In this document: piece by piece, positions 104 to 38,629 of the stretch
How positions within the stretch are numbered: position 1 is the first letter of the stretch
Layout of the letters: each line of letters starts with the position of its first letter
DNA from: a virus
Length of the DNA: 38,629 nucleotides
Strand: one strand, 5' to 3'
IMG/VR virus record: IMGVR_UViG_3300002138_000056
The notes under the pieces: generated by a model
Databases searched by the model: none
Told to the model about the DNA's origin: nothing
The model's input: the letters and a program-made list of their open reading frames with translations, nothing else
Translations under genes and position numbers: made by a program

Positions 104-526
104 AAGCCGCGACATAATCCGGCACCGTTGCCCGTCGAACTGCGCAAGCGCGTTCCTGCTGCTGAATGGATGGATCATCCTGAACTGTGGGACAAATTAA
201 AGTTCGTGGAAGAAACCAGCGAGTATTTGTTTAAGGTTTACGGCATTGGCTCAGACCAAGACAAACACGCGCTCTCGATGCTGGCTGATTACATCGACAC
301 ATATGTTAAATGTAATCGCGGGATAGAAAAAAGCGGAATCATAACCACGTTTAACAATGGCGCGACTCCTGGCCCGAATCCGTATATCCCAGTTCGCAAT
401 AAAGCCATGGGTGTCATTTTGCAATTGATGGGTGAGCTTGGCTTAACGCCTCGAGCTAGGCTTTCTGCAAACAAGGTCGAAAACTCTAGCCCGATTGCGC
501 GAATGCTTAAAGGGCCGATGGGGTGA
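62..526 (+). CDS. terS: Terminase small subunit (P27-like family)
   Basis: A 154-aa ORF directly upstream of, and overlapping (GTGA), the large terminase. It sits directly downstream of an HNH endonuclease once the circle is closed. This HNH-TerS-TerL order is typical of HK97-like cos phages. Confidence 0.7.
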   Translation: MDKKPLELHLIDGTKPRHNPAPLPVELRKRVPAAEWMDHPELWDKLKFVEETSEYLFKVYGIGSDQDKHALSMLADYIDTYVKCNRGIEKSGIITTFNNGATPGPNPYIPVRNKAMGVILQLMGELGLTPRARLSANKVENSSPIARMLKGPMG

Positions 527-2190
527 TTTGGGAACAGGGCGTTAAATACGCTATTGATGTTAGTAAGGGTGAGATTGACGTTTGCCGCGATGTTCGCCTA
601 GCTTGCCAGCGGTTCATTAACCAATACGAAAACCAAGAATGGGCGTATGTCTTTGACGAACGATTCCCGCAGCACGTACTAGATTTCTGCGTCACGCTCC
701 GACATACCAAAGGCCCGCTGGCTGGAAAACTGATTGCGCTGGAACCGTTCCAGATTTTCTTAATCTGCGGCATATACGGCTTCCGCAACAAGATTGACCG
801 CACGAAGCGCATGGTGTCGGATGTAATCCTGTACATCCCGCGCAAGGCTGGCAAATCAACTCTGACTGCGGTTATCGGGCTTTATGAATTGCGCTTTGGC
901 GAGGCAGGTAGCGAAGTCTTTACCCTAGCCACGAACCGCGAACAGGCCACCATCGTATTCGACGCGGCTAAAGGACTGGTCGAAGGAATGTTGCCGGAGC
1001 TATCTGCCGAATTCCATTTATCTAAATTTGAGATAAAAAAACTAGGCGATTCGCAATCAATGTTTAAAGCATTGAGCCGCGACACTAAAAAGACTGGCGA
1101 CGGTAAAAATCCTAGCTGTGTAATCATTGACGAAGCCGCGCAGATCGTAGACCGCAACGCTATCGAGGTGCTGCACTCAGGCATGGTGGCAAGGCAGAAC
1201 CCGTTACGGATTTACATTACCACGGCTTCATTTACTAAAGAGACAAAGTTCTACGAGGATATGGCGATGTTCCAGGCCATTCTTCACGGCGAGGCAGCAG
1301 ACAATCCTAAATGGTTTGGTTTGCTTTACGGTCTCGACCAGCAAGACGATTGGCGAGATCCGGCCTCTTGGCTAAAGGCTAATCCGATGCATGGAATATC
1401 AGTATTTGATGACGCGATTAAACAACGCGCAGAAGAAGCCAAGCACAAGCCAGCAAGCCTTAATGAGTTCCTTTGCAAGACTCTTAATATATTCGTATCC
1501 GCAAATGCGGCGTGGATTGATCGGTCGTTGTGGGAGGATAAGGTTTGCTTAATTAAAGAAGTCAGAGAACCGGATGCAGTATTTATAGGTTTTGACTTAG
1601 CAGCTACCCGCGATTTGAATGCGGTATGCACTCTTAAGCGTTTTGCTGCTGACGATTACGAAGCGGAATTTAAATTCTTTCTTCCGGAAGAAGGCTTTAA
1701 TTTTGTCCCGAAACACTATCAGGATATATTCCGCGCCGCTATAAAATCCAATATATTAAAGTTAACTGAAGGCAATGTGATGGATGACCGCGAGGTCAGC
1801 GAATATATTAAGCAGCAGGTAAATAGATACCAGATGACCAAAGAAATCGGCTACGACGCTTACAACGCCGCCTCGCTGGTGGCTCGGTTGCACGATGAAG
1901 GTATGCCTATCAAAAAGGTTGGGCAGGGCATGGCGGTATTAAACAATCCTTCTAAGCAGGTTGAAAAGCTAATACTTAATAAAAGCATCAAGCACGATGG
2001 GAATCCATTTCTTGCATGGCAACTAGGCAATTGCGAAGTGTTCACTGATGTAAACGGTAATATTAAGGTTCGCAAGAACTCTGCGGATACCGCGGCAAAA
2101 GTTGATGGTATTATCGCCATGATTATCGCGTTCCATTGCGCTCTGGATAATCCTATGGTAAATAATAGCTTCGGTTTCAGAAGTTTTTAG
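523..2190 (+). CDS. terL: Terminase large subunit (ATPase plus nuclease)
   Basis: 555 aa. Walker A-like PRKAGKST, Walker B-like CVIIDEAAQ, and a C-terminal nuclease-like region. Its position between terS and the portal gene fits. It has a GTG start overlapping the terS stop. Confidence 0.9.
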   Translation: MIWEQGVKYAIDVSKGEIDVCRDVRLACQRFINQYENQEWAYVFDERFPQHVLDFCVTLRHTKGPLAGKLIALEPFQIFLICGIYGFRNKIDRTKRMVSDVILYIPRKAGKSTLTAVIGLYELRFGEAGSEVFTLATNREQATIVFDAAKGLVEGMLPELSAEFHLSKFEIKKLGDSQSMFKALSRDTKKTGDGKNPSCVIIDEAAQIVDRNAIEVLHSGMVARQNPLRIYITTASFTKETKFYEDMAMFQAILHGEAADNPKWFGLLYGLDQQDDWRDPASWLKANPMHGISVFDDAIKQRAEEAKHKPASLNEFLCKTLNIFVSANAAWIDRSLWEDKVCLIKEVREPDAVFIGFDLAATRDLNAVCTLKRFAADDYEAEFKFFLPEEGFNFVPKHYQDIFRAAIKSNILKLTEGNVMDDREVSEYIKQQVNRYQMTKEIGYDAYNAASLVARLHDEGMPIKKVGQGMAVLNNPSKQVEKLILNKSIKHDGNPFLAWQLGNCEVFTDVNGNIKVRKNSADTAAKVDGIIAMIIAFHCALDNPMVNNSFGFRSF

Positions 2191-29048: not shown

Positions 29049-29627
29049 CTAAAAAAACTCCCTCAAAATTGGCGCACGTTTCTTGTCTCTCAACTTTCGC
29101 AAAGCCTTACTCTCGATAGCCCGGATTCGTTCTTTTGACAATCCGTGATGATTCCCAACCTCCTGAAGCGTTAAATCTTTTTCAAATCGTTCTACTAAAA
29201 TATCTTTTTCTCGCGGTTTGAGCGTTCCCAAAACCTCATTCACGATTGCAGATGTTTCTGCCGCCAGCAGTGATTCCTCTGGAGACGGTAGGTAATCTGT
29301 TCGGCTCTTTTGTTCTAGCAAATGCTGCACGAGGTTTGCATCGATGGCCCGCTCACCGCTATTGGTTTTGAGCTTGATAGTAAGTTGTTGCTCCGTCCAA
29401 AGGTCGGTGGGTGCCGCGCCAAGCACCTCCATAATTAACTTTGCGTTCTGCGAAAACTCTCCGCTTTGCAAGATTGGCGCTTCTCGCATTGCGACGAGGT
29501 TGTTGATCCTGCCGATACCGATTTCGCAAGCCCGCTCGAATTCGGCAACCGAAACGTAACCTTGTGCTTCGATTGCCGACAACAACAAATTGTTGCGTAC
29601 GCTGACTTTGAGTCTAAATTCTTTCAT
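29049..29627 (-). CDS. Sigma-70 region 3/4-like DNA-binding protein lacking region 2, with an N-terminal HTH-like domain
   Basis: The C-terminus LKPREKDILVERFEKDLTLQEVGNHHGLSKERIRAIESKALRKLRDK closely parallels primary-sigma regions 4.1/4.2 (compare [30 protein letters not shown]). No region 2 (core-binding and -10 recognition) sequence is present in the 192 aa. Confidence 0.6.
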   Translation of the reverse strand: MKEFRLKVSVRNNLLLSAIEAQGYVSVAEFERACEIGIGRINNLVAMREAPILQSGEFSQNAKLIMEVLGAAPTDLWTEQQLTIKLKTNSGERAIDANLVQHLLEQKSRTDYLPSPEESLLAAETSAIVNEVLGTLKPREKDILVERFEKDLTLQEVGNHHGLSKERIRAIESKALRKLRDKKRAPILREFF

Positions 29628-29628
29628 T

Positions 29629-29934
29629 TTAGAACGCTATTTCGTCGTCAATATCAGCAAAAGTTTTAAGTTCTTTTTTTGGTTCTATTTTTTGCTCTAC
29701 AGGCTGCGATGCCTTTGCCAACTCTAAAACTTTCACTTGAAACGCCGCATTGATATAAGCGTGATTCCAGTATTTGCCAGTAGCTGCATTCTTTGTGCTC
29801 GGCATAGAAACAAACTCACCTTTTTGTGACTGCTGAATTCGACAGCCTTTCAACTCCAGGAACGCATCTTTGCCTTCCGACGAATGCAGGTTGATGTTGA
29901 AACTACGGTCGTGCCAAACGATTGAAATGTGCAT
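29629..29934 (-). CDS. Small SSB-like protein (101 aa) with an acidic-aromatic C-terminal tip
   Basis: It ends in ...FADIDDEIAF, like the E. coli SSB tip DFDDDIPF and the acidic Phe-terminal tail of T7 gp2.5. It lies directly downstream of the ERF and exonuclease genes. The core LELKGCRIQQSQKGEFVSMPSTK...GKYWNHAY resembles a SpoVG-like beta pattern. Confidence 0.45.
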   Translation of the reverse strand: MHISIVWHDRSFNINLHSSEGKDAFLELKGCRIQQSQKGEFVSMPSTKNAATGKYWNHAYINAAFQVKVLELAKASQPVEQKIEPKKELKTFADIDDEIAF

Positions 29935-30551
29935 TATTTAACCTTTTTGAGTTGAGATAACATTTTGTCCACGGTGTCCAAAAAGGCGACAACCGCAGTT
30001 TCCAGTTCAAGAATACGCGCTGGATCACGCTTAAAACGAACGATGAACAATTGTAAATGCTCCGGCAGGTCAGGACGGAAACTGACGAAATCGCACCAAT
30101 CCCTGCCGGTTACCGCCATCTGCCACATCATCTGGTTGCGATAGGCTGCCGGGACAACACCGGCCAGCAGGTAAGCCAAATGGGTGCTGACCTTTGGACA
30201 TTTGATCTCCACTTCTCCTGAATTGCCTACCAAGCCATCAGGAGAAGCACCAGCGCGTTCAATTGTCGGATGGATACATAACCCTACCTCATCCACCGAA
30301 AACCCTGTCTCGGCTTCGTAGGCGCTTCGGGCAAGCGGTTCCGTATCTGAGCCGAACTGCATGTGGACGTTGGTGTAATCTGACCCTTGAGGCTTGCCGG
30401 TCAGAATCTCCGCAACGAGCTGTGCCTGGTAATCCCTAAACCCCGCTGTTTCTGGCTTCATAAGCACATTTGAAATCATGCTGGCAGTAACCCGTCCGGC
30501 ACGAGCTGCGAGCCATTCTGGTGTGCCTTGCACTGCATCAATGACTTTCAT
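29934..30551 (-). CDS. YqaJ-type (lambda Exo-like) recombination exonuclease
   Basis: 205 aa. The N-terminal GTPEWLAARAGRVTASMISNVL is the YqaJ family signature. It is ATGA-coupled to the annealase gene. Confidence 0.8.
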   Translation of the reverse strand: MKVIDAVQGTPEWLAARAGRVTASMISNVLMKPETAGFRDYQAQLVAEILTGKPQGSDYTNVHMQFGSDTEPLARSAYEAETGFSVDEVGLCIHPTIERAGASPDGLVGNSGEVEIKCPKVSTHLAYLLAGVVPAAYRNQMMWQMAVTGRDWCDFVSFRPDLPEHLQLFIVRFKRDPARILELETAVVAFLDTVDKMLSQLKKVK

Positions 30552-31132
30552 GCCGCCTCCAGAGCAGTTTTGCGGTTGTTTTTTGCTCCGGTAAGGATGG
30601 CCATTGCAACTGTATCTTGAGCAACTTGTGCGGCTTTGTATGCGGATTTAAAGGCAGTTTGCAATGCGTCCATCGAGCCAGCATCTTGCAATGTTTTTAG
30701 GAAATAAGTGCAATCCATAGCAATTTTTGGCTTTGCAGCACTGGCCGCGTTCCCGTCGTCGTCTAGCTCGGTGGAAACACCTGCGGCGGCAGACAAACTA
30801 TAACGACGACAATAAGTCAATGCCGACCCGTATCCCTGAGCGTCAACTTTAGACACAGGCAAGGCCAACACTCCGCAGGAGATCCATTCACCAGAAGCGT
30901 GGAGAAGGGTTGTCTCTACCCGCACCTCGTCTTTTTCGCTTGGCTCGACGGTCTGGATGTAGCTCAAACCGTTAGCACTGAATGCTGCTCGAATGGCTTC
31001 AACTACGCTGGCAAGGTCAGCATAGCGACTTTTGAAAAACGGGTTTGCAGAGTCTTTGATAGCTCCCTTCATGGCTCCCTGCGCTTTTGCTAATGCTGCC
31101 GCCAATTCTTTGATGCTTTCTGATTTAGTCAT
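30548..31132 (-). CDS. ERF-family single-strand annealing protein
   Basis: 194 aa. IKELAAALAKAQGAMKGAIKDSANPFFKSRYADLASVVEAIR and CRRYSL are characteristic of the ERF superfamily. Confidence 0.8.
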   Translation of the reverse strand: MTKSESIKELAAALAKAQGAMKGAIKDSANPFFKSRYADLASVVEAIRAAFSANGLSYIQTVEPSEKDEVRVETTLLHASGEWISCGVLALPVSKVDAQGYGSALTYCRRYSLSAAAGVSTELDDDGNAASAAKPKIAMDCTYFLKTLQDAGSMDALQTAFKSAYKAAQVAQDTVAMAILTGAKNNRKTALEAA

Positions 31133-31141
31133 ATTATTCCT

Positions 31142-31234
31142 TTAATTATAAAATAATGCTGCAAGAATTAGCGCACCGCAAAGTACGCCCATGCCGACCC
31201 ACTCGATTGTTTCAATAAAGTTACTCAAAATCAT
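31142..31234 (-). CDS. 30-aa single-TM micro-ORF
   Basis: Hand-translated as MILSNFIETIEWVGMGVLCGALILAALFYN. Its start lies inside the last codons of the upstream gene, and it ends 9 nt before the ERF start. Confidence 0.3.
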   Translation of the reverse strand: MILSNFIETIEWVGMGVLCGALILAALFYN

Positions 31235-31598
31235 CCTCCGCGTATTCAGCGGCAATATCATTTACGATATCCGAATCCCTAAAATGATTTTCTAGCATTT
31301 CTTTTATTGTTTCCTGCTCGCGCCGAATGCGGTCTGATACATCTCTTCCAGTAACGCAGCCAATATACATTTCAAGGAAATAACTAGGGTCGCGCTCTTC
31401 CAGCAGGAAATCGTAAAGATCAAACTCTGATTTTTTGAATTTGCCTTTGACCGGTTGCGGCCACATTCCGCAGTCCATTACGGTTTCCACCACGCCTTCC
31501 AGCGCCAGCTCGTGATGCCTAGCCGTGGGCTTGGCAGGTTGGTTCGGATAGCAACGCGGGCAATCCGTGGCACCGCACATGCAACGCTCGGCGGTCAT
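31221..31598 (-). CDS. Hypothetical protein (125 aa) with an N-terminal Cys cluster and a strongly acidic C-terminal half
   Basis: CMCGATDCPRCYP at the N-terminus. By my count the last 70 aa hold about 21 Asp/Glu against about 8 Lys/Arg. Confidence 0.6.
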   Translation of the reverse strand: MTAERCMCGATDCPRCYPNQPAKPTARHHELALEGVVETVMDCGMWPQPVKGKFKKSEFDLYDFLLEERDPSYFLEMYIGCVTGRDVSDRIRREQETIKEMLENHFRDSDIVNDIAAEYAEDDFE

Positions 31599-32067: not shown

Positions 32068-32096
32068 TTGCAAGCTGGTATGTAAAGGATTATAAT
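32068..32096 (+). promoter_or_regulatory. Rightward early promoter (sigma70-type)
   Basis: -35 TTGCAA (32068-32073), a 17-nt spacer, then a perfect -10 TATAAT (32091-32096). It lies upstream of the Cro-like gene. Confidence 0.7.
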
Positions 32097-32116
32097 GCGT
32101 TCACCAACATTTGCAA
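32089..32116 (-). promoter_or_regulatory. Leftward early promoter (sigma70-type) sharing its -10 region with the rightward promoter
   Basis: On the minus strand: -35 TTGCAA (32116-32111), a 16-nt spacer, then -10 TATAAT (complement of 32089-32094). Confidence 0.65.
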
Positions 32117-32175
32117 CATATATTTACAACTATTTAAAGATATATTTATATCTAAATGAAATCAAAGGGTTACAT

Positions 32176-32379
32176 ATGAAAACTAACGATGTTTTGACGC
32201 ATTTTGGTGGGAAACGAGCGACTGCGGAGGCTTTAGGGCTGTCAACTCAGGCGGTACAAGCGTGGAAAAGTATCATTCCGCAGAAACAGGCTTGGCGTAT
32301 TGACCGCCTCACAAACGGGGTGCTGAAAATCGACGAGTCTTTATATGCAACGGGTCGTGACAAATCAGTTGTCACGTGA
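32176..32379 (+). CDS. Cro / YdaS-like HTH DNA-binding protein (67 aa)
   Basis: MKTNDVLTHFGGKRATAEALGLSTQAVQAWKSIIPQKQAWRIDRLTNG matches the Cro/YdaS-type HTH pattern. RBS AAAGGG. It is the first gene downstream of the rightward promoter. Confidence 0.65.
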   Translation: MKTNDVLTHFGGKRATAEALGLSTQAVQAWKSIIPQKQAWRIDRLTNGVLKIDESLYATGRDKSVVT

Positions 32380-34764: not shown

Positions 34765-35311
34765 TAAACAGCGGTTTTCTGAAATGCTTACCGGCTTGGG
34801 CGAATATTACGGCAAGCCGATATCTAAAATGATGATGGATATTTACGCTCAAGGGCTGGCGAATTACGACATTGACGACATATCCAAAGCATTCAGCACT
34901 CATGTGCGAAACCCTGACAACGGGCAATTCATGCCGAAGATTGCCGATGTTGAGCGGTCGTTAAACGGCAATTCAGCAACCAGAGCCATGCGAGCCTGGA
35001 ACAAAGTAACAAAGGCTGTGCAGGAAATCGGCACCTATTGCACCGTTAAATTTGACGATACTTTAATAAACTCTGTAATTCAGGATATGGGCGGCTGGCC
35101 TGCTATTGGGCAAATAACCGAAGATGAATTGCCTTTCCGAATAAAAGAGTTTGAAAAGCGTTACCAAGCGTATTTGCAGATATCGCCATCTTATCCGGTA
35201 ACCGCATTGATCGGCGTATTTGAAAAACAGAATCGCACTGATGGATATTACGAGGACGAAACGGTATTGATAGGAAATCACAACAAAACGTTATCTTTGG
35301 AGGCAAAATGA
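34751..35311 (+). CDS. Replication-associated protein (possible helicase-loader analogue, lambda P position)
   Basis: 186 aa, overlapping the initiator gene's 3' end. The call rests on synteny only. No Walker motif was seen. Confidence 0.35.
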   Translation: MKSTDKQRFSEMLTGLGEYYGKPISKMMMDIYAQGLANYDIDDISKAFSTHVRNPDNGQFMPKIADVERSLNGNSATRAMRAWNKVTKAVQEIGTYCTVKFDDTLINSVIQDMGGWPAIGQITEDELPFRIKEFEKRYQAYLQISPSYPVTALIGVFEKQNRTDGYYEDETVLIGNHNKTLSLEAK

Positions 35312-35505
35312 CCCAGTGCGAGCAGCTTTTAGAAGCGATGAAACGCGGCGAACAATTGACGGTTGCCGAGGCGCTGGATAGGTATGGTGTCTATGCTTTG
35401 AGTCAAAGATGTGGCGAGTTAATTCGGCAAGGCCATCCGATTAACGTGGAAACCATAAAAGTCCAATCTGGCAAGCGAGTAGCCCGATACTCGATGGCTT
35501 TATGA
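35308..35505 (+). CDS. Small winged-helix / HTH protein (65 aa)
   Basis: LLEAMKRGEQLTVAEALDRYGVYALSQRCGELIRQGHPI resembles the phage HTH_39-type domain. It is ATGA-coupled. Confidence 0.5.
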   Translation: MTQCEQLLEAMKRGEQLTVAEALDRYGVYALSQRCGELIRQGHPINVETIKVQSGKRVARYSMAL

Positions 35506-36574: not shown

Positions 36575-36802
36575 ATGATAACGAAACAGATTTTAGAACT
36601 AGTGGCTCAACAGCCGTTGAATGCAAAAGAAATTATTGAAAAACTGAACGGCAGCAAAACAGTTGTGTTTGCTACTTTAAGTTCGTTATCTCGGCGTGGT
36701 TTAATTAGTCGAGAAGCTGTTAAAAAGACCGAAGCTGGCAGGGGCCGCAAAACCATCTACATTTATCGAGCGAACAACACAGCGGCTGAAATCACATGCT
36801 AA
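36575..36802 (+). CDS. Winged-helix DNA-binding protein (75 aa)
   Basis: ILELVAQQPLNAKEIIEKLNGSKTVVFATLSSLSRRGLISRE is a MarR/ArsR-like wHTH pattern. Confidence 0.5.
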   Translation: MITKQILELVAQQPLNAKEIIEKLNGSKTVVFATLSSLSRRGLISREAVKKTEAGRGRKTIYIYRANNTAAEITC

Positions 36803-38037
36803 CAATACAATACAAAAAGATTGAACAATTGATTCCGTATGCCAGGAACAGTCGCACCCACAGCGATGCCCAAGTAGCGCAGATTGCCGCCAGCATTAAA
36901 GAATTCGGCTGGACAAATCCTGTCTTGATGGATGGCGATAACGGCATTATCGCGGGGCATGGTCGAGTGCTTGCTGCAAGGGTGTTAGGGCAGACTGACA
37001 TTCCGACGATTGAACTGTCTCACATGACAGATATTCAGAAACGCGCTTATATAATTTCAGACAATAAGTTAACAATGAATGCTGGTTGGGATGAAGAAGT
37101 GCTTGGCCTGGAACTGACAGAGTTAAAAGAATTCGGCTTCAACCTCGACCTGACCGGCTTTAGCACCGAGGAAATCGAGGCGCTGCTGGCTCCGACAGGA
37201 ACGGAGGGACTGACAGACGAGGATGCTGTGCCGGAGGTGCCTGAAGCCCCAGTGACCGTTCTGGGGGACGTTTGGCTGTTGGGCAAGCATCGGGTGATGT
37301 GTGGGGATTCGACCAGCATTGAGCAGGCCGAGCAGTTGATGGCGGGAACAAACGCAGACCTTGTCTTTACAGACCCTCCCTACAATGTCGCATATTCTGG
37401 CCGAGGCCAGAATAATCTTGGAACGATCAAGAACGACGATATGTCGGCGGCAGACTTTGAGCAGTTTTGCCGCGACTTGTTTGCCACTTATCACGCCGTG
37501 ATGAAACCGCTGGCGTGCATCTATGTGTGCCACCCCGACAGCCAATCGGGGCCGAAGTTGGCGTTTGAAAAGACGTTTGCCGAGCAATTTAAGAAATCCA
37601 GCACGATTATCTGGATGAAGCAGTCCGCAGGGATGGGGTGGCAAGACTACCGCGCCCAGCACGAACCGATTTTGTACGGCTGGAAAGATGGCGGGAAGGG
37701 AAAACACTTCTTCAGCGGCGACAGGACAAAAACAACCGTCTGGAAGATTGGCCGCGATGCACAAGCGACATACAAGCATCCAACTCAAAAGCCCGTCGCT
37801 TTGCCAGAAGAAGCGATAAACAACAGCAGCAAGGGCCAGGACATAGTCCTCGACCTATTCGGCGGCAGCGGTTCAACCCTGATCGCCTGCGAGAAAACAG
37901 GCCGCATCAATCGCAGTATGGAACTCGACCCCAAGTACTGCGATGTAATCGTCCAACGCTGGCAAGAATTCACAGGACAGACAGCAACGCTGGAATCAAC
38001 GGGAGAACCATTTGCCATCAGTTCCAAGCAACCCTAA
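36796..38037 (+). CDS. ParB-like nuclease domain fused to a DNA N6-adenine-type methyltransferase (DPPY)
   Basis: The N-terminus (IPYARNSRTHSDAQVAQIAASIKEFGWTNPVLMDGDNGIIAGHGRVLAA) is a ParB/Srx domain. It is followed by motif IV VFTDPPYNV and motif I VLDLFGGSGSTLIACE. Confidence 0.85.
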   Translation: MLTIQYKKIEQLIPYARNSRTHSDAQVAQIAASIKEFGWTNPVLMDGDNGIIAGHGRVLAARVLGQTDIPTIELSHMTDIQKRAYIISDNKLTMNAGWDEEVLGLELTELKEFGFNLDLTGFSTEEIEALLAPTGTEGLTDEDAVPEVPEAPVTVLGDVWLLGKHRVMCGDSTSIEQAEQLMAGTNADLVFTDPPYNVAYSGRGQNNLGTIKNDDMSAADFEQFCRDLFATYHAVMKPLACIYVCHPDSQSGPKLAFEKTFAEQFKKSSTIIWMKQSAGMGWQDYRAQHEPILYGWKDGGKGKHFFSGDRTKTTVWKIGRDAQATYKHPTQKPVALPEEAINNSSKGQDIVLDLFGGSGSTLIACEKTGRINRSMELDPKYCDVIVQRWQEFTGQTATLESTGEPFAISSKQP

Positions 38038-38494
38038 ATGCACAGAATTAGGGTGCAATAATCAACGCTCATTGTTTAATAGTTTCTGCTTGGAGCATGG
38101 CGGTCGTGATAAGCCTCGGTACTATTACAACGATAGCGACCAGAATAAATTAAAGAGAAAACAATATAACAATTCAAGGTGGGCGAGATTAAGGCAGCGT
38201 CAATTAAGCACACAGCCCCTTTGCCAAGCCTGTTTGCAAGACGGTCACCTAAAGACCGCCTCTGATGTAGACCATGTGTTCCCGTGGCATTCAATAGGCA
38301 AAGAAGCATTTATCCTTAACCTATTTCAATCGCTGTGCCACTCCTGTCACTCAATCAAGACACACCTAGAGAGGCAGGGCATCTATCGCCACTACGACCG
38401 TCCTAGCGCGTTTAAAGACTATGTTCACGCTGATTGGCAGATGGCTGTGCAGCGGCAATATGATGGGAAAACGACAGAAAATTTAGAAACTTAA
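38012..38494 (+). CDS. HNH endonuclease (packaging-associated)
   Basis: DVDHVFPW...LCHSCHSIKT is an HNH motif, and there is an N-terminal Cys cluster. On the closed circle it lies immediately upstream of terS. Confidence 0.8.
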   Translation: MPSVPSNPKCTELGCNNQRSLFNSFCLEHGGRDKPRYYYNDSDQNKLKRKQYNNSRWARLRQRQLSTQPLCQACLQDGHLKTASDVDHVFPWHSIGKEAFILNLFQSLCHSCHSIKTHLERQGIYRHYDRPSAFKDYVHADWQMAVQRQYDGKTTENLET

Positions 38495-38526
38495 AGTTTT
38501 TTTGATTAAGGAAAAGCAAGCGCGCA

Positions 38527-38629
38527 ATCCTTTTCTTTTGCAAATGCGCTTGACGAATACGGGTTATCCCTGCCAGAATTTAACTTATGGATAAAAAACC
38601 TTTAGAACTGCACCTGATCGACGGAACCA
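38527..38629. repeat. Right copy of the 103-bp terminal direct repeat
   Basis: Identical to 1-103 by direct comparison. It contains a truncated second copy of the terS start (ATG at 38588). Confidence 0.95.

What the first reader, a model, noticed from the sequence alone, without database searches (positions are those of the whole stretch)
29049..29627. Phage protein with sigma70 regions 3/4 but no region 2, fused to an N-terminal HTH-like domain
The last ~70 aa track primary-sigma regions 4.1/4.2 closely (LTLQEVGNHHGLSKERIRAIESKALRKLR). The rest of the 192-aa protein has nothing resembling region 2, which in sigma factors binds core RNAP and recognises the -10 element. Instead the N-terminus looks like a separate Xre-like HTH (YVSVAEFERACEIGIGRINNL).

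A stand-alone region 4 could do one of three things:
- bind -35-like hexamers as a repressor or activator
- compete with host sigma for the beta-flap, as a sigma-appropriation or decoy mechanism
- act as a split or partial sigma for late transcription

Both early promoters use the palindromic -35 TTGCAA. I found no sigma70-type promoter in front of the late genes.
Basis: partly seen in the sequence, partly recalled or inferred. Interest (0 to 1): 0.62.

Follow-up and report, generated by a model that had tools for sequence, protein, structure and literature searches.

The report
Phage regulator: Cro-like HTH plus sigma region 4
An early gene of an uncultured aquatic phage encodes a small protein that joins a repressor-type DNA-binding head to a near-perfect copy of the part of the bacterial housekeeping sigma factor that reads the -35 promoter element, so it is probably an undescribed way for phages to interfere with host RNA polymerase rather than a sigma factor.

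Summary
The ORF (29049-29627, minus strand, 192 aa) is real, sits in the leftward early operon and is translationally coupled to its neighbours.

- **C-terminal domain:** residues 113-192 are a true RpoD-type region 4 (Pfam Sigma70_r4, E 1.4e-18).
- **What is absent:** there is no region 2 or region 3, either in this protein or elsewhere in the phage.
- **N-terminal domain:** residues 1-95 form a confidently predicted domain (pLDDT 96) with no PDB fold match. It carries a Cro/C1-like helix-turn-helix that Pfam detects in 15-18 of 92 relatives.
- **Distribution:** the same architecture defines a large family (at least 150, probably about 1000, clusters at 50% identity; 136 IMG/VR contigs). It is absent from 50,697 cultured-phage records and always lies among early replication or recombination genes.
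- **Conservation:** the -35-reading residues are the best conserved sigma-4 positions across the family.

My best reading is a two-headed transcription regulator that acts at -35-like hexamers of sigma-70 promoters. Docking on the beta-flap in place of host region 4 is a serious rival. A split sigma is disfavoured. No DNA target was found. The scan had not found this family on other DNA.

The parts
29049..29627 (-). Whole gene: 192-aa Cro/C1-like HTH + sigma region 4 protein (the stop codon is 29049-29051)
   Evidence: ORF list. There are 393 close homologues and at least 150 full-length clusters at 50% identity. The AF2 model has pLDDT 95.
29343..29627 (-). N-terminal domain, aa 1-95. A two-stranded sheet (strands 4-9 and 90-95) frames five short helices.
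   Evidence: AF2 on the N-terminal 112 aa gives pLDDT 96 and pTM 0.82. No PDB fold match is better than E 2. In BFVD it matches only family members, plus weak XRE hits. In the close clade it is three times less variable than region 4.
29493..29549 (-). Helix-turn-helix motif of the N-domain, aa 27-45 (VAEFERACEIGIGRINNLV)
   Evidence: Helices 27-33 and 40-45 in the model. Pfam HTH_3 and HTH_26 hits cover this stretch in relatives. hhalign puts it in register with sigma 4.2 and two Cro-like profiles. The exposed positions 40, 42 and 43 are highly variable across the family.
29292..29342 (-). Acidic connecting helix, aa 96-112
   Evidence: Helix 97-110 in the model; pLDDT falls to 84 over aa 101-120. 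The sequence is variable and the mean net charge is -1.7.
29052..29291 (-). RpoD-type region 4, aa 113-192. It corresponds to E. coli sigma-70 residues 528-611, comprising the end of the 3.2 linker, regions 4.1 and 4.2, and the C-terminal tail.
   Evidence: Pfam, NCBIfam, PDB sequence and profile searches and Foldseek.
29088..29138 (-). -35 recognition helix, aa 164-180 (SKERIRAIESKALRKLR)
   Evidence: Alignment to sigma-70 T583-R599. In the family, R586 is kept in 95%, R588 in 86% and Q589 in 91% of members. In the window's own clade, aa 170 (equivalent to Q589) is Q, G, A or S.
29629..29934 (-). Upstream, translationally coupled 101-aa ORF (operon context only)
   Evidence: It is a conserved neighbour in the Erf/exo-type relatives and has a weak SpoVG match at E 8.7e-4.
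29934..31132 (-). Erf-like annealing protein and YqaJ/RecE-like exonuclease genes upstream in the same leftward early operon
   Evidence: PHROG matches at E 8e-48 and 1e-41.
32068..32116 (.). Divergent early promoters (TTGCAA-N17-TATAAT rightward, TTGCAA-N16-TATAAT leftward). The leftward one drives the operon that holds the gene.
   Evidence: Promoter scan. The sequence is conserved in 7 related contigs.

Best explanation
The gene encodes an early-expressed phage transcription regulator, not a sigma factor.

**Domains**
- The C-terminal 80 residues are a copy of region 4 of a housekeeping (RpoD/SigA-type) sigma factor. They keep the residues that read the -35 hexamer.
- The N-terminal 95 residues are a decorated Cro/C1-type helix-turn-helix domain whose exposed recognition positions vary from phage to phage.
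- An acidic helix joins the two domains.

**Proposed mechanism**
I propose that the protein binds promoter DNA directly as a two-headed reader.
- The sigma-4 head occupies a -35-like hexamer (TTGACA type).
- The N-terminal head makes a second, phage-specific contact next to it.
- This places a competing region 4 where host sigma-70 normally binds. It would re-weight transcription by host sigma-70 RNA polymerase after infection: shutting down -35-dependent host or early promoters, or recruiting polymerase to particular phage promoters.

**Shown versus inferred**
- Shown: domain identities, absence of regions 2 and 3, conservation of the DNA-reading residues, early-operon position, and wide distribution.
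- Inferred: DNA binding itself, the target sites and the direction of the effect.
For: - **Region 4 identity.**
- **Conservation of the DNA-contacting residues.** Mapped onto E. coli sigma-70 numbering, the residues known to contact -35 DNA are among the most conserved region-4 columns in 92 relatives that share only 31-60% identity. The values are R554 75%, R562 84%, R584 54% (plus K 11%), E585 72%, R586 95%, R588 86%, Q589 91% and K593 66%. The outer face of the first 4.1 helix is free to vary.
- **Charge.** The region-4 module is basic, +6 in the window protein and +3.5 on average in the family.
- **N-domain HTH.** It is detected by Pfam Cro/C1 models in 15-18 of 92 relatives, at aa 15-80, and lies in register with other HTH profiles. 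Its exposed recognition-helix positions are hypervariable between relatives, as in phage repressors.
- **No partner.** No region 2 partner is found anywhere in the window or in complete relatives, so the protein must work with host sigma-70 holoenzyme.
- **Timing.** The gene is always in early or delayed-early modules, in some relatives directly after the cro-like gene.
- **Established knowledge.** Isolated sigma-A region 4 binds -35 DNA on its own (the Taq sigma-4/-35 DNA crystal structure, recalled from memory).
Against: - **No DNA target was found.** There is no repeated bipartite motif in the genome and TTGCAA is not enriched.
- **No covariation.** The early-promoter hexamers do not co-vary with aa 170.
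- **Clade-specific variation.** In the window's own clade the Q589-equivalent base-reading residue varies freely (38 Q, 37 G, 35 A, 9 S). Region 4 also evolves three times faster than the N-domain. This is odd if -35 reading is the selected function there.
- **Charge of the N-domain.** It is about neutral (0 in the window, +1.6 on average in the family). Its most conserved surface is not the recognition helix but helices 1, 4 and 5 (RNNLLL, PxDLWTxxQL). That pattern hints at a protein partner.
- **Weak intrinsic binding.** Free region 4 binds -35 DNA only weakly (recalled from memory).
Confidence: 0.38

Rival explanations
1. **Region-4 surrogate on the polymerase.** The sigma-4 module docks on the beta-flap tip exactly as host region 4 does, competing with or replacing it.
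- This could happen at initiation. The result would be a three-part holoenzyme: core, host sigma-70 regions 2-3 for the -10 element, and the phage region 4 plus HTH for a new upstream element. That would be a one-protein version of T4 AsiA/MotA appropriation or of gp33.
- It could instead happen after promoter escape. The protein would then act as a flap-bound, DNA-loaded antiterminator comparable to lambda Q.
For: - The module is RpoD-like along its whole length, including the C-terminal tail. L607 is kept in 72% of relatives, and hydrophobic residues are kept at 598, 610 and 611. This is far closer to sigma than region-4-like DNA-binding regulators such as RinA are (PMC3152322).
- Position 581 is Gly in 54% of relatives and in the window protein. 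From memory, D581G strengthens the region 4/beta-flap interaction in E. coli two-hybrid work.
- In the close clade the N-domain is more constrained than region 4, and its conserved surface is not the recognition helix. This fits a conserved host partner.
- No N- or Q-type antiterminator was recognised among the ORFs I scanned, and the late genes lie downstream of the rightward early operon across cos.
- T4 gp33 is a precedent for a small phage protein that takes the flap from sigma-70 region 4.
Against: - No direct evidence of flap binding could be obtained.
- Host region 4 is tethered to the holoenzyme and would be hard to displace without an AsiA-like helper.
- The conserved SP(E/D) motif before region 4 looks like an ordinary helix N-cap.
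- The closest cultured relative manages its late genes without this protein.
Confidence: 0.3
2. **Region-4 decoy.** The free sigma-4 module titrates a host or defence protein that normally binds region 4 of sigma-70. Candidates are an Rsd/AlgQ-type anti-sigma, a region-4-contacting activator, or a defence component. The N-domain would give localisation or a second contact.
For: - The gene behaves as a mosaic accessory early gene. It is absent from the nearest cultured relative.
- It is found behind two different recombination modules, and in some relatives next to a Lar-like restriction-alleviation gene.
- The activator-contact basic residues R596, K597 and R599 are conserved in 76-86% of relatives.
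- The best NCBIfam and PADLOC hit is MzaA of the MZA anti-phage system, but only over region 4.
Against: - A decoy would not need conserved base-reading residues, nor a second, strongly conserved domain.
- The MzaA score exceeds the RpoD score by only 9 bits and covers region 4 alone.
Confidence: 0.1
3. **Half of a split or minimal sigma factor.** The protein supplies region 4, while an unrecognised phage protein, or the N-domain itself, replaces region 2 to read and open late promoters.
For: - The size and layout (domain of about 95 aa, linker of about 30 aa, region 4) mirror ECF sigma factors. TIGR02937 matches its C-terminal half above the cut-off.
- The scan has found the mirror-image case in other phages: a sigma lacking region 4.2 plus a separate small HTH protein.
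Against: - No Sigma70_r2 hit in five related records, four of them at least 90% complete, or in 20 window ORFs, including those between the connector and tail genes.
- The N-domain has short helices and a beta-sheet, and no Foldseek match to any sigma-2 or sigma-3 among hundreds of sigma chains in the PDB.
- The gene is early and accessory.
Confidence: 0.07

Closest known systems
Region 4 (domain sigma-4) of housekeeping sigma factors RpoD/SigA
   Same: - 39-42% identity over about 80 residues, superposed at rmsd 1.6-2.1 A.
- The same HTH, the same -35-contact residues and the same C-terminal tail. The protein ends where sigma-70 ends.
   Different: - Regions 1.1 to 3 are absent, so there is no binding to the beta-prime clamp helices and no recognition or melting of the -10 element.
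- The module is fused to an unrelated N-terminal HTH domain.
- The window clade has R584K and a variable Q589 position.
T4 gp33 (beta-flap-binding late co-activator) and the AsiA/MotA sigma-appropriation pair
   Same: These are small phage proteins that act at the region 4 / beta-flap / -35 node of host RNA polymerase. In appropriation, a phage DNA-binding head replaces -35 reading.
   Different: - There is no sequence or fold relationship.
- gp33 has no DNA-binding head and works with gp55 and the sliding clamp.
- AsiA binds host region 4 rather than imitating it.
- Flap binding by the present protein is untested.
RinA/ArpU/LtrC/DUF1492 late transcriptional regulators of Gram-positive phages
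   Same: They are small phage activators whose C-terminal half has limited similarity to sigma region 4 and which are not thought to be sigma factors (PMC3152322; PMC3753634).
   Different: - Those genes sit immediately upstream of terS and bind the late promoter there. This gene sits deep in early operons.
- Their sigma similarity is marginal, whereas here it reaches Pfam E 1e-18.
- Only 1 of 92 relatives touches DUF1492.
- They have no Cro/C1-type N-domain.
GafA, activator of the Rhodobacter capsulatus gene transfer agent
   Same: The architecture is analogous: an N-terminal HTH DNA-binding domain, a C-terminal sigma-factor-like DNA-binding region, and direct action on RNA polymerase (PMC9638019).
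   Different: - GafA is 42 kDa with a central omega-binding region.
- Its N-domain is DnaA-like.
- Its sigma similarity is only tentative (HHpred E > 0.84, per the paper).
- No homology to the present family was shown or tested.
Lambda Q-type antiterminators
   Same: A phage protein that combines DNA binding near a promoter with a contact to the beta-flap and sigma region 4 node. This phage has no recognisable Q or N protein.
   Different: There is no sequence similarity, and an antitermination role is pure inference here.

Membership tests
Sigma-70 family sigma factor (functional sigma) | Region 2 (sigma-2): binding to the beta-prime clamp helices, recognition and melting of the -10 element | tested here: not met
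   - No Sigma70_r2 hit at E up to 10.
- The N-terminal 129 aa have no Pfam or PDB sequence hit.
- The family profile aligns to sigma factors only from about position 105.
- The N-domain model has no PDB fold hit better than E 2.
Sigma-70 family sigma factor (functional sigma) | Region 4 (sigma-4) with the -35-reading HTH | tested here: met
   - Sigma70_r3 hits occur in 5 of 92 relatives. In the one I located (P0143, aa 139-172) the hit lies on the region-4 HTH.
- Foldseek on the N-domain finds no sigma chain.
Cro/C1 (Xre) helix-turn-helix domain | Five-helix bundle with a helix 2-turn-helix 3 motif, matched by Pfam HTH_3, HTH_26 or HTH_31 | tested here: inconclusive
   - The window protein itself gives no hit.
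- 18, 15 and 7 of 92 relatives hit HTH_3, HTH_26 and HTH_31. The hits lie at aa 15-80, and two are at or above the Pfam cut-off.
- The helix order fits.
- Foldseek finds no PDB match and only weak XRE matches in BFVD (probability 0.3-0.7).
- hhalign aligns the 20-27-residue HTH motif at pairwise E of about 0.02.
Two-piece (split) sigma factors, e.g. B. subtilis SigO-RsoA or T4 gp55+gp33 | A partner protein that supplies region 2 function, encoded in the same genome | tested here: not met
   - PF04542 six-frame search of five related viral records gave 0 hits at E up to 1; four of the records are at least 90% complete.
- Twenty unannotated window ORFs were scanned with Pfam without a sigma hit.
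- A gp55-like protein too diverged for Pfam cannot be excluded.
RinA/ArpU/DUF1492 late transcriptional regulators | The gene lies immediately upstream of terS, at the head of the morphogenetic operon | tested here: not met
   In the window, HNH (38012-38494) precedes terS. This gene lies about 9.5 kb away on the other strand, in the early operon. The position is likewise early in 78 loci.
Beta-flap-binding phage factors (T4 gp33, P23-45 gp39, lambda Q) | Physical binding to the beta-flap tip of host RNA polymerase | not testable with these tools
   This needs a complex prediction or an experiment.
MzaA (sigma-70-family protein of the MZA anti-phage system) | A protein of about 700 aa, matched over its full length at the NCBIfam cut-off of 800 bits | tested here: not met
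   Only 66.8 bits, over profile positions 629-713 of 726, which is region 4 alone. PADLOC gives the same picture.

The most novel reading that the evidence does not exclude
A widespread, uncharacterised class of phage proteins works as a detachable region 4.
- The protein docks on the beta-flap of host RNA polymerase in place of the host sigma factor's own region 4.
- Through its attached Cro-like head it gives the resulting three-part holoenzyme (core, host sigma regions 2-3, phage region 4-HTH) a new upstream promoter specificity.
- Alternatively it stays on the flap during elongation as a Q-like antiterminator.

This would be sigma appropriation achieved by molecular mimicry of the sigma domain itself, in a single polypeptide.
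Probability: 0.25. Interest if true: 0.85.

Novelty: new variant of a known kind. Interest (0 to 1): 0.58.

Why it matters
Phages are known to redirect host RNA polymerase in three main ways:
- with complete sigma factors;
- with proteins that bind region 4 or the beta-flap (AsiA/MotA, gp33, gp39, Q);
- with ordinary activators.

A protein that carries an almost unaltered housekeeping region 4 without the rest of sigma, joined to a repressor-type HTH, is not among the described solutions. I found no description of it in four full-text literature searches.

The family is large. At least 150 clusters at 50% identity match over the full length, and 1038 representatives score E <= 1e-10, a score that region 4 alone cannot reach. 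It is common in aquatic viromes. Yet it is missing from all 50,697 cultured-phage records searched. It is therefore a blind spot of model-phage biology.

Whichever reading proves right, the protein would be:
- a compact natural tool for probing the region 4 / -35 / beta-flap node;
- a possible part for synthetic promoter control.

The N-terminal domain is also a confidently predicted fold variant with no PDB counterpart.

Tried and rejected
**1. Region 2 elsewhere**
- A search of the window's own genome was impossible, because no genome is held for it.
- PF04542 in five related viral records gave no hit.
- Pfam on 20 window ORFs gave no hit.

**2. DNA target**
- The genome-wide repeat search found only tail-fibre and iteron repeats.
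- TTGCAA occurs 37 times against 28 +/- 5.7 expected, so it is not enriched.
- A covariation test between aa 170 and the early -35 hexamers in 8 genomes showed invariant hexamers.
- Footprinting of the region upstream of terS failed. Relatives with the same sigma-like gene carry different structural modules.
- Many contigs also end about 58 nt upstream of terS, which points to a cos end rather than a promoter.

**3. Cultured homologues**
- tblastn of the window protein and of an enterobacterial-MAG relative against cultured phages found only the region 4 of real rpoD genes.
- E. coli genomes gave nothing.
- Two same-position proteins of Methylophilaceae phage P19250A are unrelated.

**4. Bacterial carriers**
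- The diverse alignment was too variable for back-translated patterns.
- A narrower alignment found only two MAG contigs, both phage-like.

**5. C-terminal extensions**
- Extensions in longer relatives (up to 340 aa) share no common sequence by eye.

**6. Possible N-domain duplication**
- The idea that the N-domain is a duplicate of region 4 or a relative of the phage's own Cro was tested with hhalign. Only the generic 20-27-residue HTH motif aligns.

**7. The SP(E/D) motif**
- The conserved motif before region 4 was considered as evidence for exit-channel docking. I rejected this, because in the model it is the N-cap of the first region-4 helix.

**8. Expression data**
Full report
**The object**

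The window is a complete, circularly assembled siphophage genome of 38,525 bp. It has a 104-bp terminal overlap and 45.8% G+C.
- The plus strand carries HNH, small and large terminase, portal, protease, capsid, tail, fibre and lysis genes. It then carries a rightward early operon with a Cro-like HTH, methyltransferases, an O-like initiator, NinB, a Ref-like nuclease and a ParB-methyltransferase.
- A leftward early operon runs from the divergent promoters at 32068-32116. It passes through an Erf-like annealing protein and a YqaJ/RecE-like exonuclease, then a 101-aa ORF, then the finding.
- The finding is a 192-aa ORF at 29049-29627 on the minus strand. Its ATG follows the preceding stop after one base. 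The next ORF starts 10 nt after its stop, behind a GGAG.

**The C-terminal domain is a real housekeeping-type region 4**
- Pfam Sigma70_r4 matches aa 132-180 at E 1.4e-18.
- NCBIfam RpoD, SigA, RpoH, RpoS and FliA models all align only to aa 105-191 or less. PHROG sigma-factor families behave the same way.
- phmmer against PDB sequences aligns aa 113-191 to E. coli RpoD 528-610. The only gap is the four-residue loop at 568-571.
- A profile of 92 relatives hits SigA/RpoD at E 2e-29.
- Foldseek superposes 80-84 residues of the AF2 model (pLDDT 95) on sigma-70 region 4 at rmsd 1.6-2.1 A and 39-42% identity.
- The protein ends at the position equivalent to L611 of sigma-70, two residues before sigma-70 itself ends.

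**There is no region 2 and no region 3**
- The N-terminal 129 residues have no Pfam hit at E up to 10 and no meaningful PDB sequence hit.
- Five of 92 relatives hit Sigma70_r3. In the one I located (P0143, aa 139-172) the hit lies on the region-4 HTH.
- The full-length Foldseek alignments to sigma chains have TM-scores no higher than the region-4-only alignments.
- A separate model of aa 1-112 (pLDDT 96, pTM 0.82) has no PDB match better than E 2. The PDB holds hundreds of sigma-2 and sigma-3 domains.
- The title's 'regions 3/4' should therefore read 'region 4 plus the last residues of the 3.2 linker'.

**The N-terminal domain**

The model shows a strand (aa 4-9), five short helices (13-21, 27-33, 40-45, 60-69, 73-83), a second strand (90-95) placed to pair with the first, and a helix (97-110) that leads into region 4. 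The helix order is that of a Cro/C1 (Xre) domain.
- The window sequence alone does not reach any Pfam HTH model.
- Among 92 relatives, 18 match HTH_3, 15 match HTH_26 and 7 match HTH_31. In the three relatives I checked, the matches lie at aa 15-80. Two of them are at or above Pfam's own cut-offs.
- BFVD returns family members (for example A0A0F7L6V6 from an uncultured marine virus, TM 0.77) and weak XRE or Cro hits.
- hhalign puts aa 21-47 in register with the HTH of region 4.2 and with two Cro-like families from the same phages. Only the generic motif aligns.

**A large uncultured family**
- A full HMMER scan of 1.84 billion representatives lists 150 proteins that match over essentially the whole length (E down to 4e-20).
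- The same scan counts 1038 representatives at E <= 1e-10, a score that region 4 alone (about 43 bits) cannot give.
- There are 393 close homologues from marine and other metagenomes and 136 IMG/VR contigs.
- No full-length homologue exists in 50,697 cultured-phage records or in 5,426 E. coli genomes.
- The closest cultured phage is Methylophilaceae phage P19250A (TerL 68% identical). It has the same genome layout but lacks the gene.

**Genomic context**

In 78 loci the gene always lies among early or delayed-early genes.
- In some it lies behind Erf and an exonuclease.
- In others it lies behind a Sak4-like ATPase, an SSB and a Cas4-type exonuclease.
- In others it lies directly after a family-A DNA polymerase, followed by an exonuclease and a helicase.
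- In others it is the second gene after a cro-like gene, ahead of a primase.
- In one MAG it lies in the rightward operon of a CI/Cro-type element.

It is therefore a mobile early accessory gene, not part of the conserved late-gene machinery.

**Conservation pattern**

I mapped the family alignment onto sigma-70 numbering, using the alignment. The sigma-70 C-terminal sequence and the roles of its residues come from my own knowledge.
- The best conserved region-4 columns are the -35-contacting and recognition-helix residues: R554 75%, R562 84%, E585 72%, R586 95%, R588 86%, Q589 91%, K593 66% and R596/K597/R599 76-86%. Core hydrophobics, including L607, are also conserved.
- The exposed face of the first 4.1 helix is variable.
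- In the N-domain the exposed positions of helix 3 are the most variable. Helix 1 (R-N-N-L-L-L, with N12 invariant), the G56 loop and P73-x-D-L-W-T-x-x-Q81 are the most conserved.
- Within the window's own clade (120 sequences at 81% identity or more) the N-domain is three times less variable than region 4: 0.18 against 0.56 bits per column.
- In that clade the Q589-equivalent residue is hypervariable (38 Q, 37 G, 35 A, 9 S), while E585, R586 and R588 are invariant.

**Search for a partner and a target**
- No Sigma70_r2 is detectable in five related records, four of them at least 90% complete.
- None is detectable in 20 otherwise unannotated window ORFs. These include the ORFs between the connector and tail genes, where an earlier finding of this scan had located a half-sigma in another phage.
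- No repeated regulatory motif was found, and TTGCAA is not enriched.
- The TTGCAA hexamers of the early promoters are invariant in eight genomes whose proteins carry A, S or Q at aa 170.
- The only promoter-like match upstream of terS is weak (9/12).
- Dozens of related contigs end about 58 nt upstream of terS. With the adjacent HNH gene, this indicates a cos end there.

**Reading**

The protein cannot be a sigma factor by itself, and nothing suggests a region-2 partner. Two readings remain, and they differ in what the region-4 module touches.
- **Free two-headed DNA-binding regulator (0.38).** It would occupy -35-like hexamers. I rank it first because DNA reading is the only property the conservation pattern supports positively.
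- **Docking on the beta-flap in place of host region 4 (0.30).** It would act as an initiation surrogate or as a Q-like elongation factor. Support comes from the full-length RpoD likeness, the strongly constrained non-recognition surface of the N-domain, and the relaxed Q589 position in the window's clade. I had no means to test binding.
- **Region-4 decoy (0.10) and split sigma (0.07).** These are less likely.

**Comparison with known systems**
- The RinA-type late regulators have only marginal region-4 similarity and sit immediately upstream of terS (PMC3152322).
- GafA has an analogous two-DNA-binding-domain layout but only tentative sigma similarity (PMC9638019).
- T4 gp33, AsiA/MotA and lambda Q act at the same node of the polymerase but are unrelated in sequence.

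I therefore class the finding as a new variant of a known kind: a phage transcription regulator aimed at the region 4 / -35 / flap node. It has an undescribed architecture and an untested mechanism.

Noticed in passing
window 38495-38629 and 1-61; loci L084-L163: In dozens of related IMG/VR contigs the record begins 24-100 nt (most often about 58 nt) upstream of terS. The window itself starts 61 nt upstream. With the HNH gene directly before it, this marks a cos-type physical genome end. The TTGACG-N18-CAGAAT match there may therefore not be a promoter.
   Followed up: partly
window 523-2190 and the whole genome: The closest cultured relative is Methylophilaceae phage P19250A, which infects a freshwater LD28-clade methylotroph. 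TerL is 68% identical and the genome layout is the same. The host of the window phage may be an OM43/LD28-type methylotroph. A 119-nt stretch of the fibre gene is 85% identical to Roseobacter phage CRP-831.
   Followed up: partly
window 29344-29559 (+): A 71-codon antisense ORF inside the N-domain coding region stays open in 57 of 78 related loci. It is probably a by-product of the strong constraint on the sense frame.
   Followed up: no
window 29118-29120 (codon of aa 170): Within the clade sharing 81% identity or more, the residue equivalent to sigma-70 Q589 is Q, G, A or S in roughly equal shares. The neighbouring E, R and R residues are invariant. In the wider family the position is 91% Q. 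This may reflect relaxed or diversifying selection on one base contact.
   Followed up: partly
window 29629-29934 (-): The translationally coupled upstream 101-aa ORF has a weak SpoVG match (E 8.7e-4, below the Pfam cut-off). It is a conserved neighbour only in relatives that carry the Erf/exo module.
   Followed up: no
loci L003-L028 versus window 29934-31598: Two different recombination modules alternate upstream of the same sigma-like gene in close relatives: Erf plus a YqaJ-type exonuclease, or a Sak4-like ATPase plus an SSB plus a Cas4-type exonuclease. Some relatives insert a Lar-like restriction-alleviation gene directly before it.
   Followed up: partly
window 32117-32160: Downstream of the leftward -35 hexamer, two direct copies of ATATATTTA, with a similar third element, are conserved in 6 of 7 relatives just before the likely true start of the cro-like gene near 32176. 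They may be operators.
   Followed up: no
window 35308-35500 and 36575-36796 (+): Read by eye from the sequence printed, two small ORFs (about 64 and 73 aa) look like winged-helix DNA-binding proteins. One follows a TTAATA-N17-TATGAT promoter-like site. They are alternative candidates for late-gene regulators.
   Followed up: no
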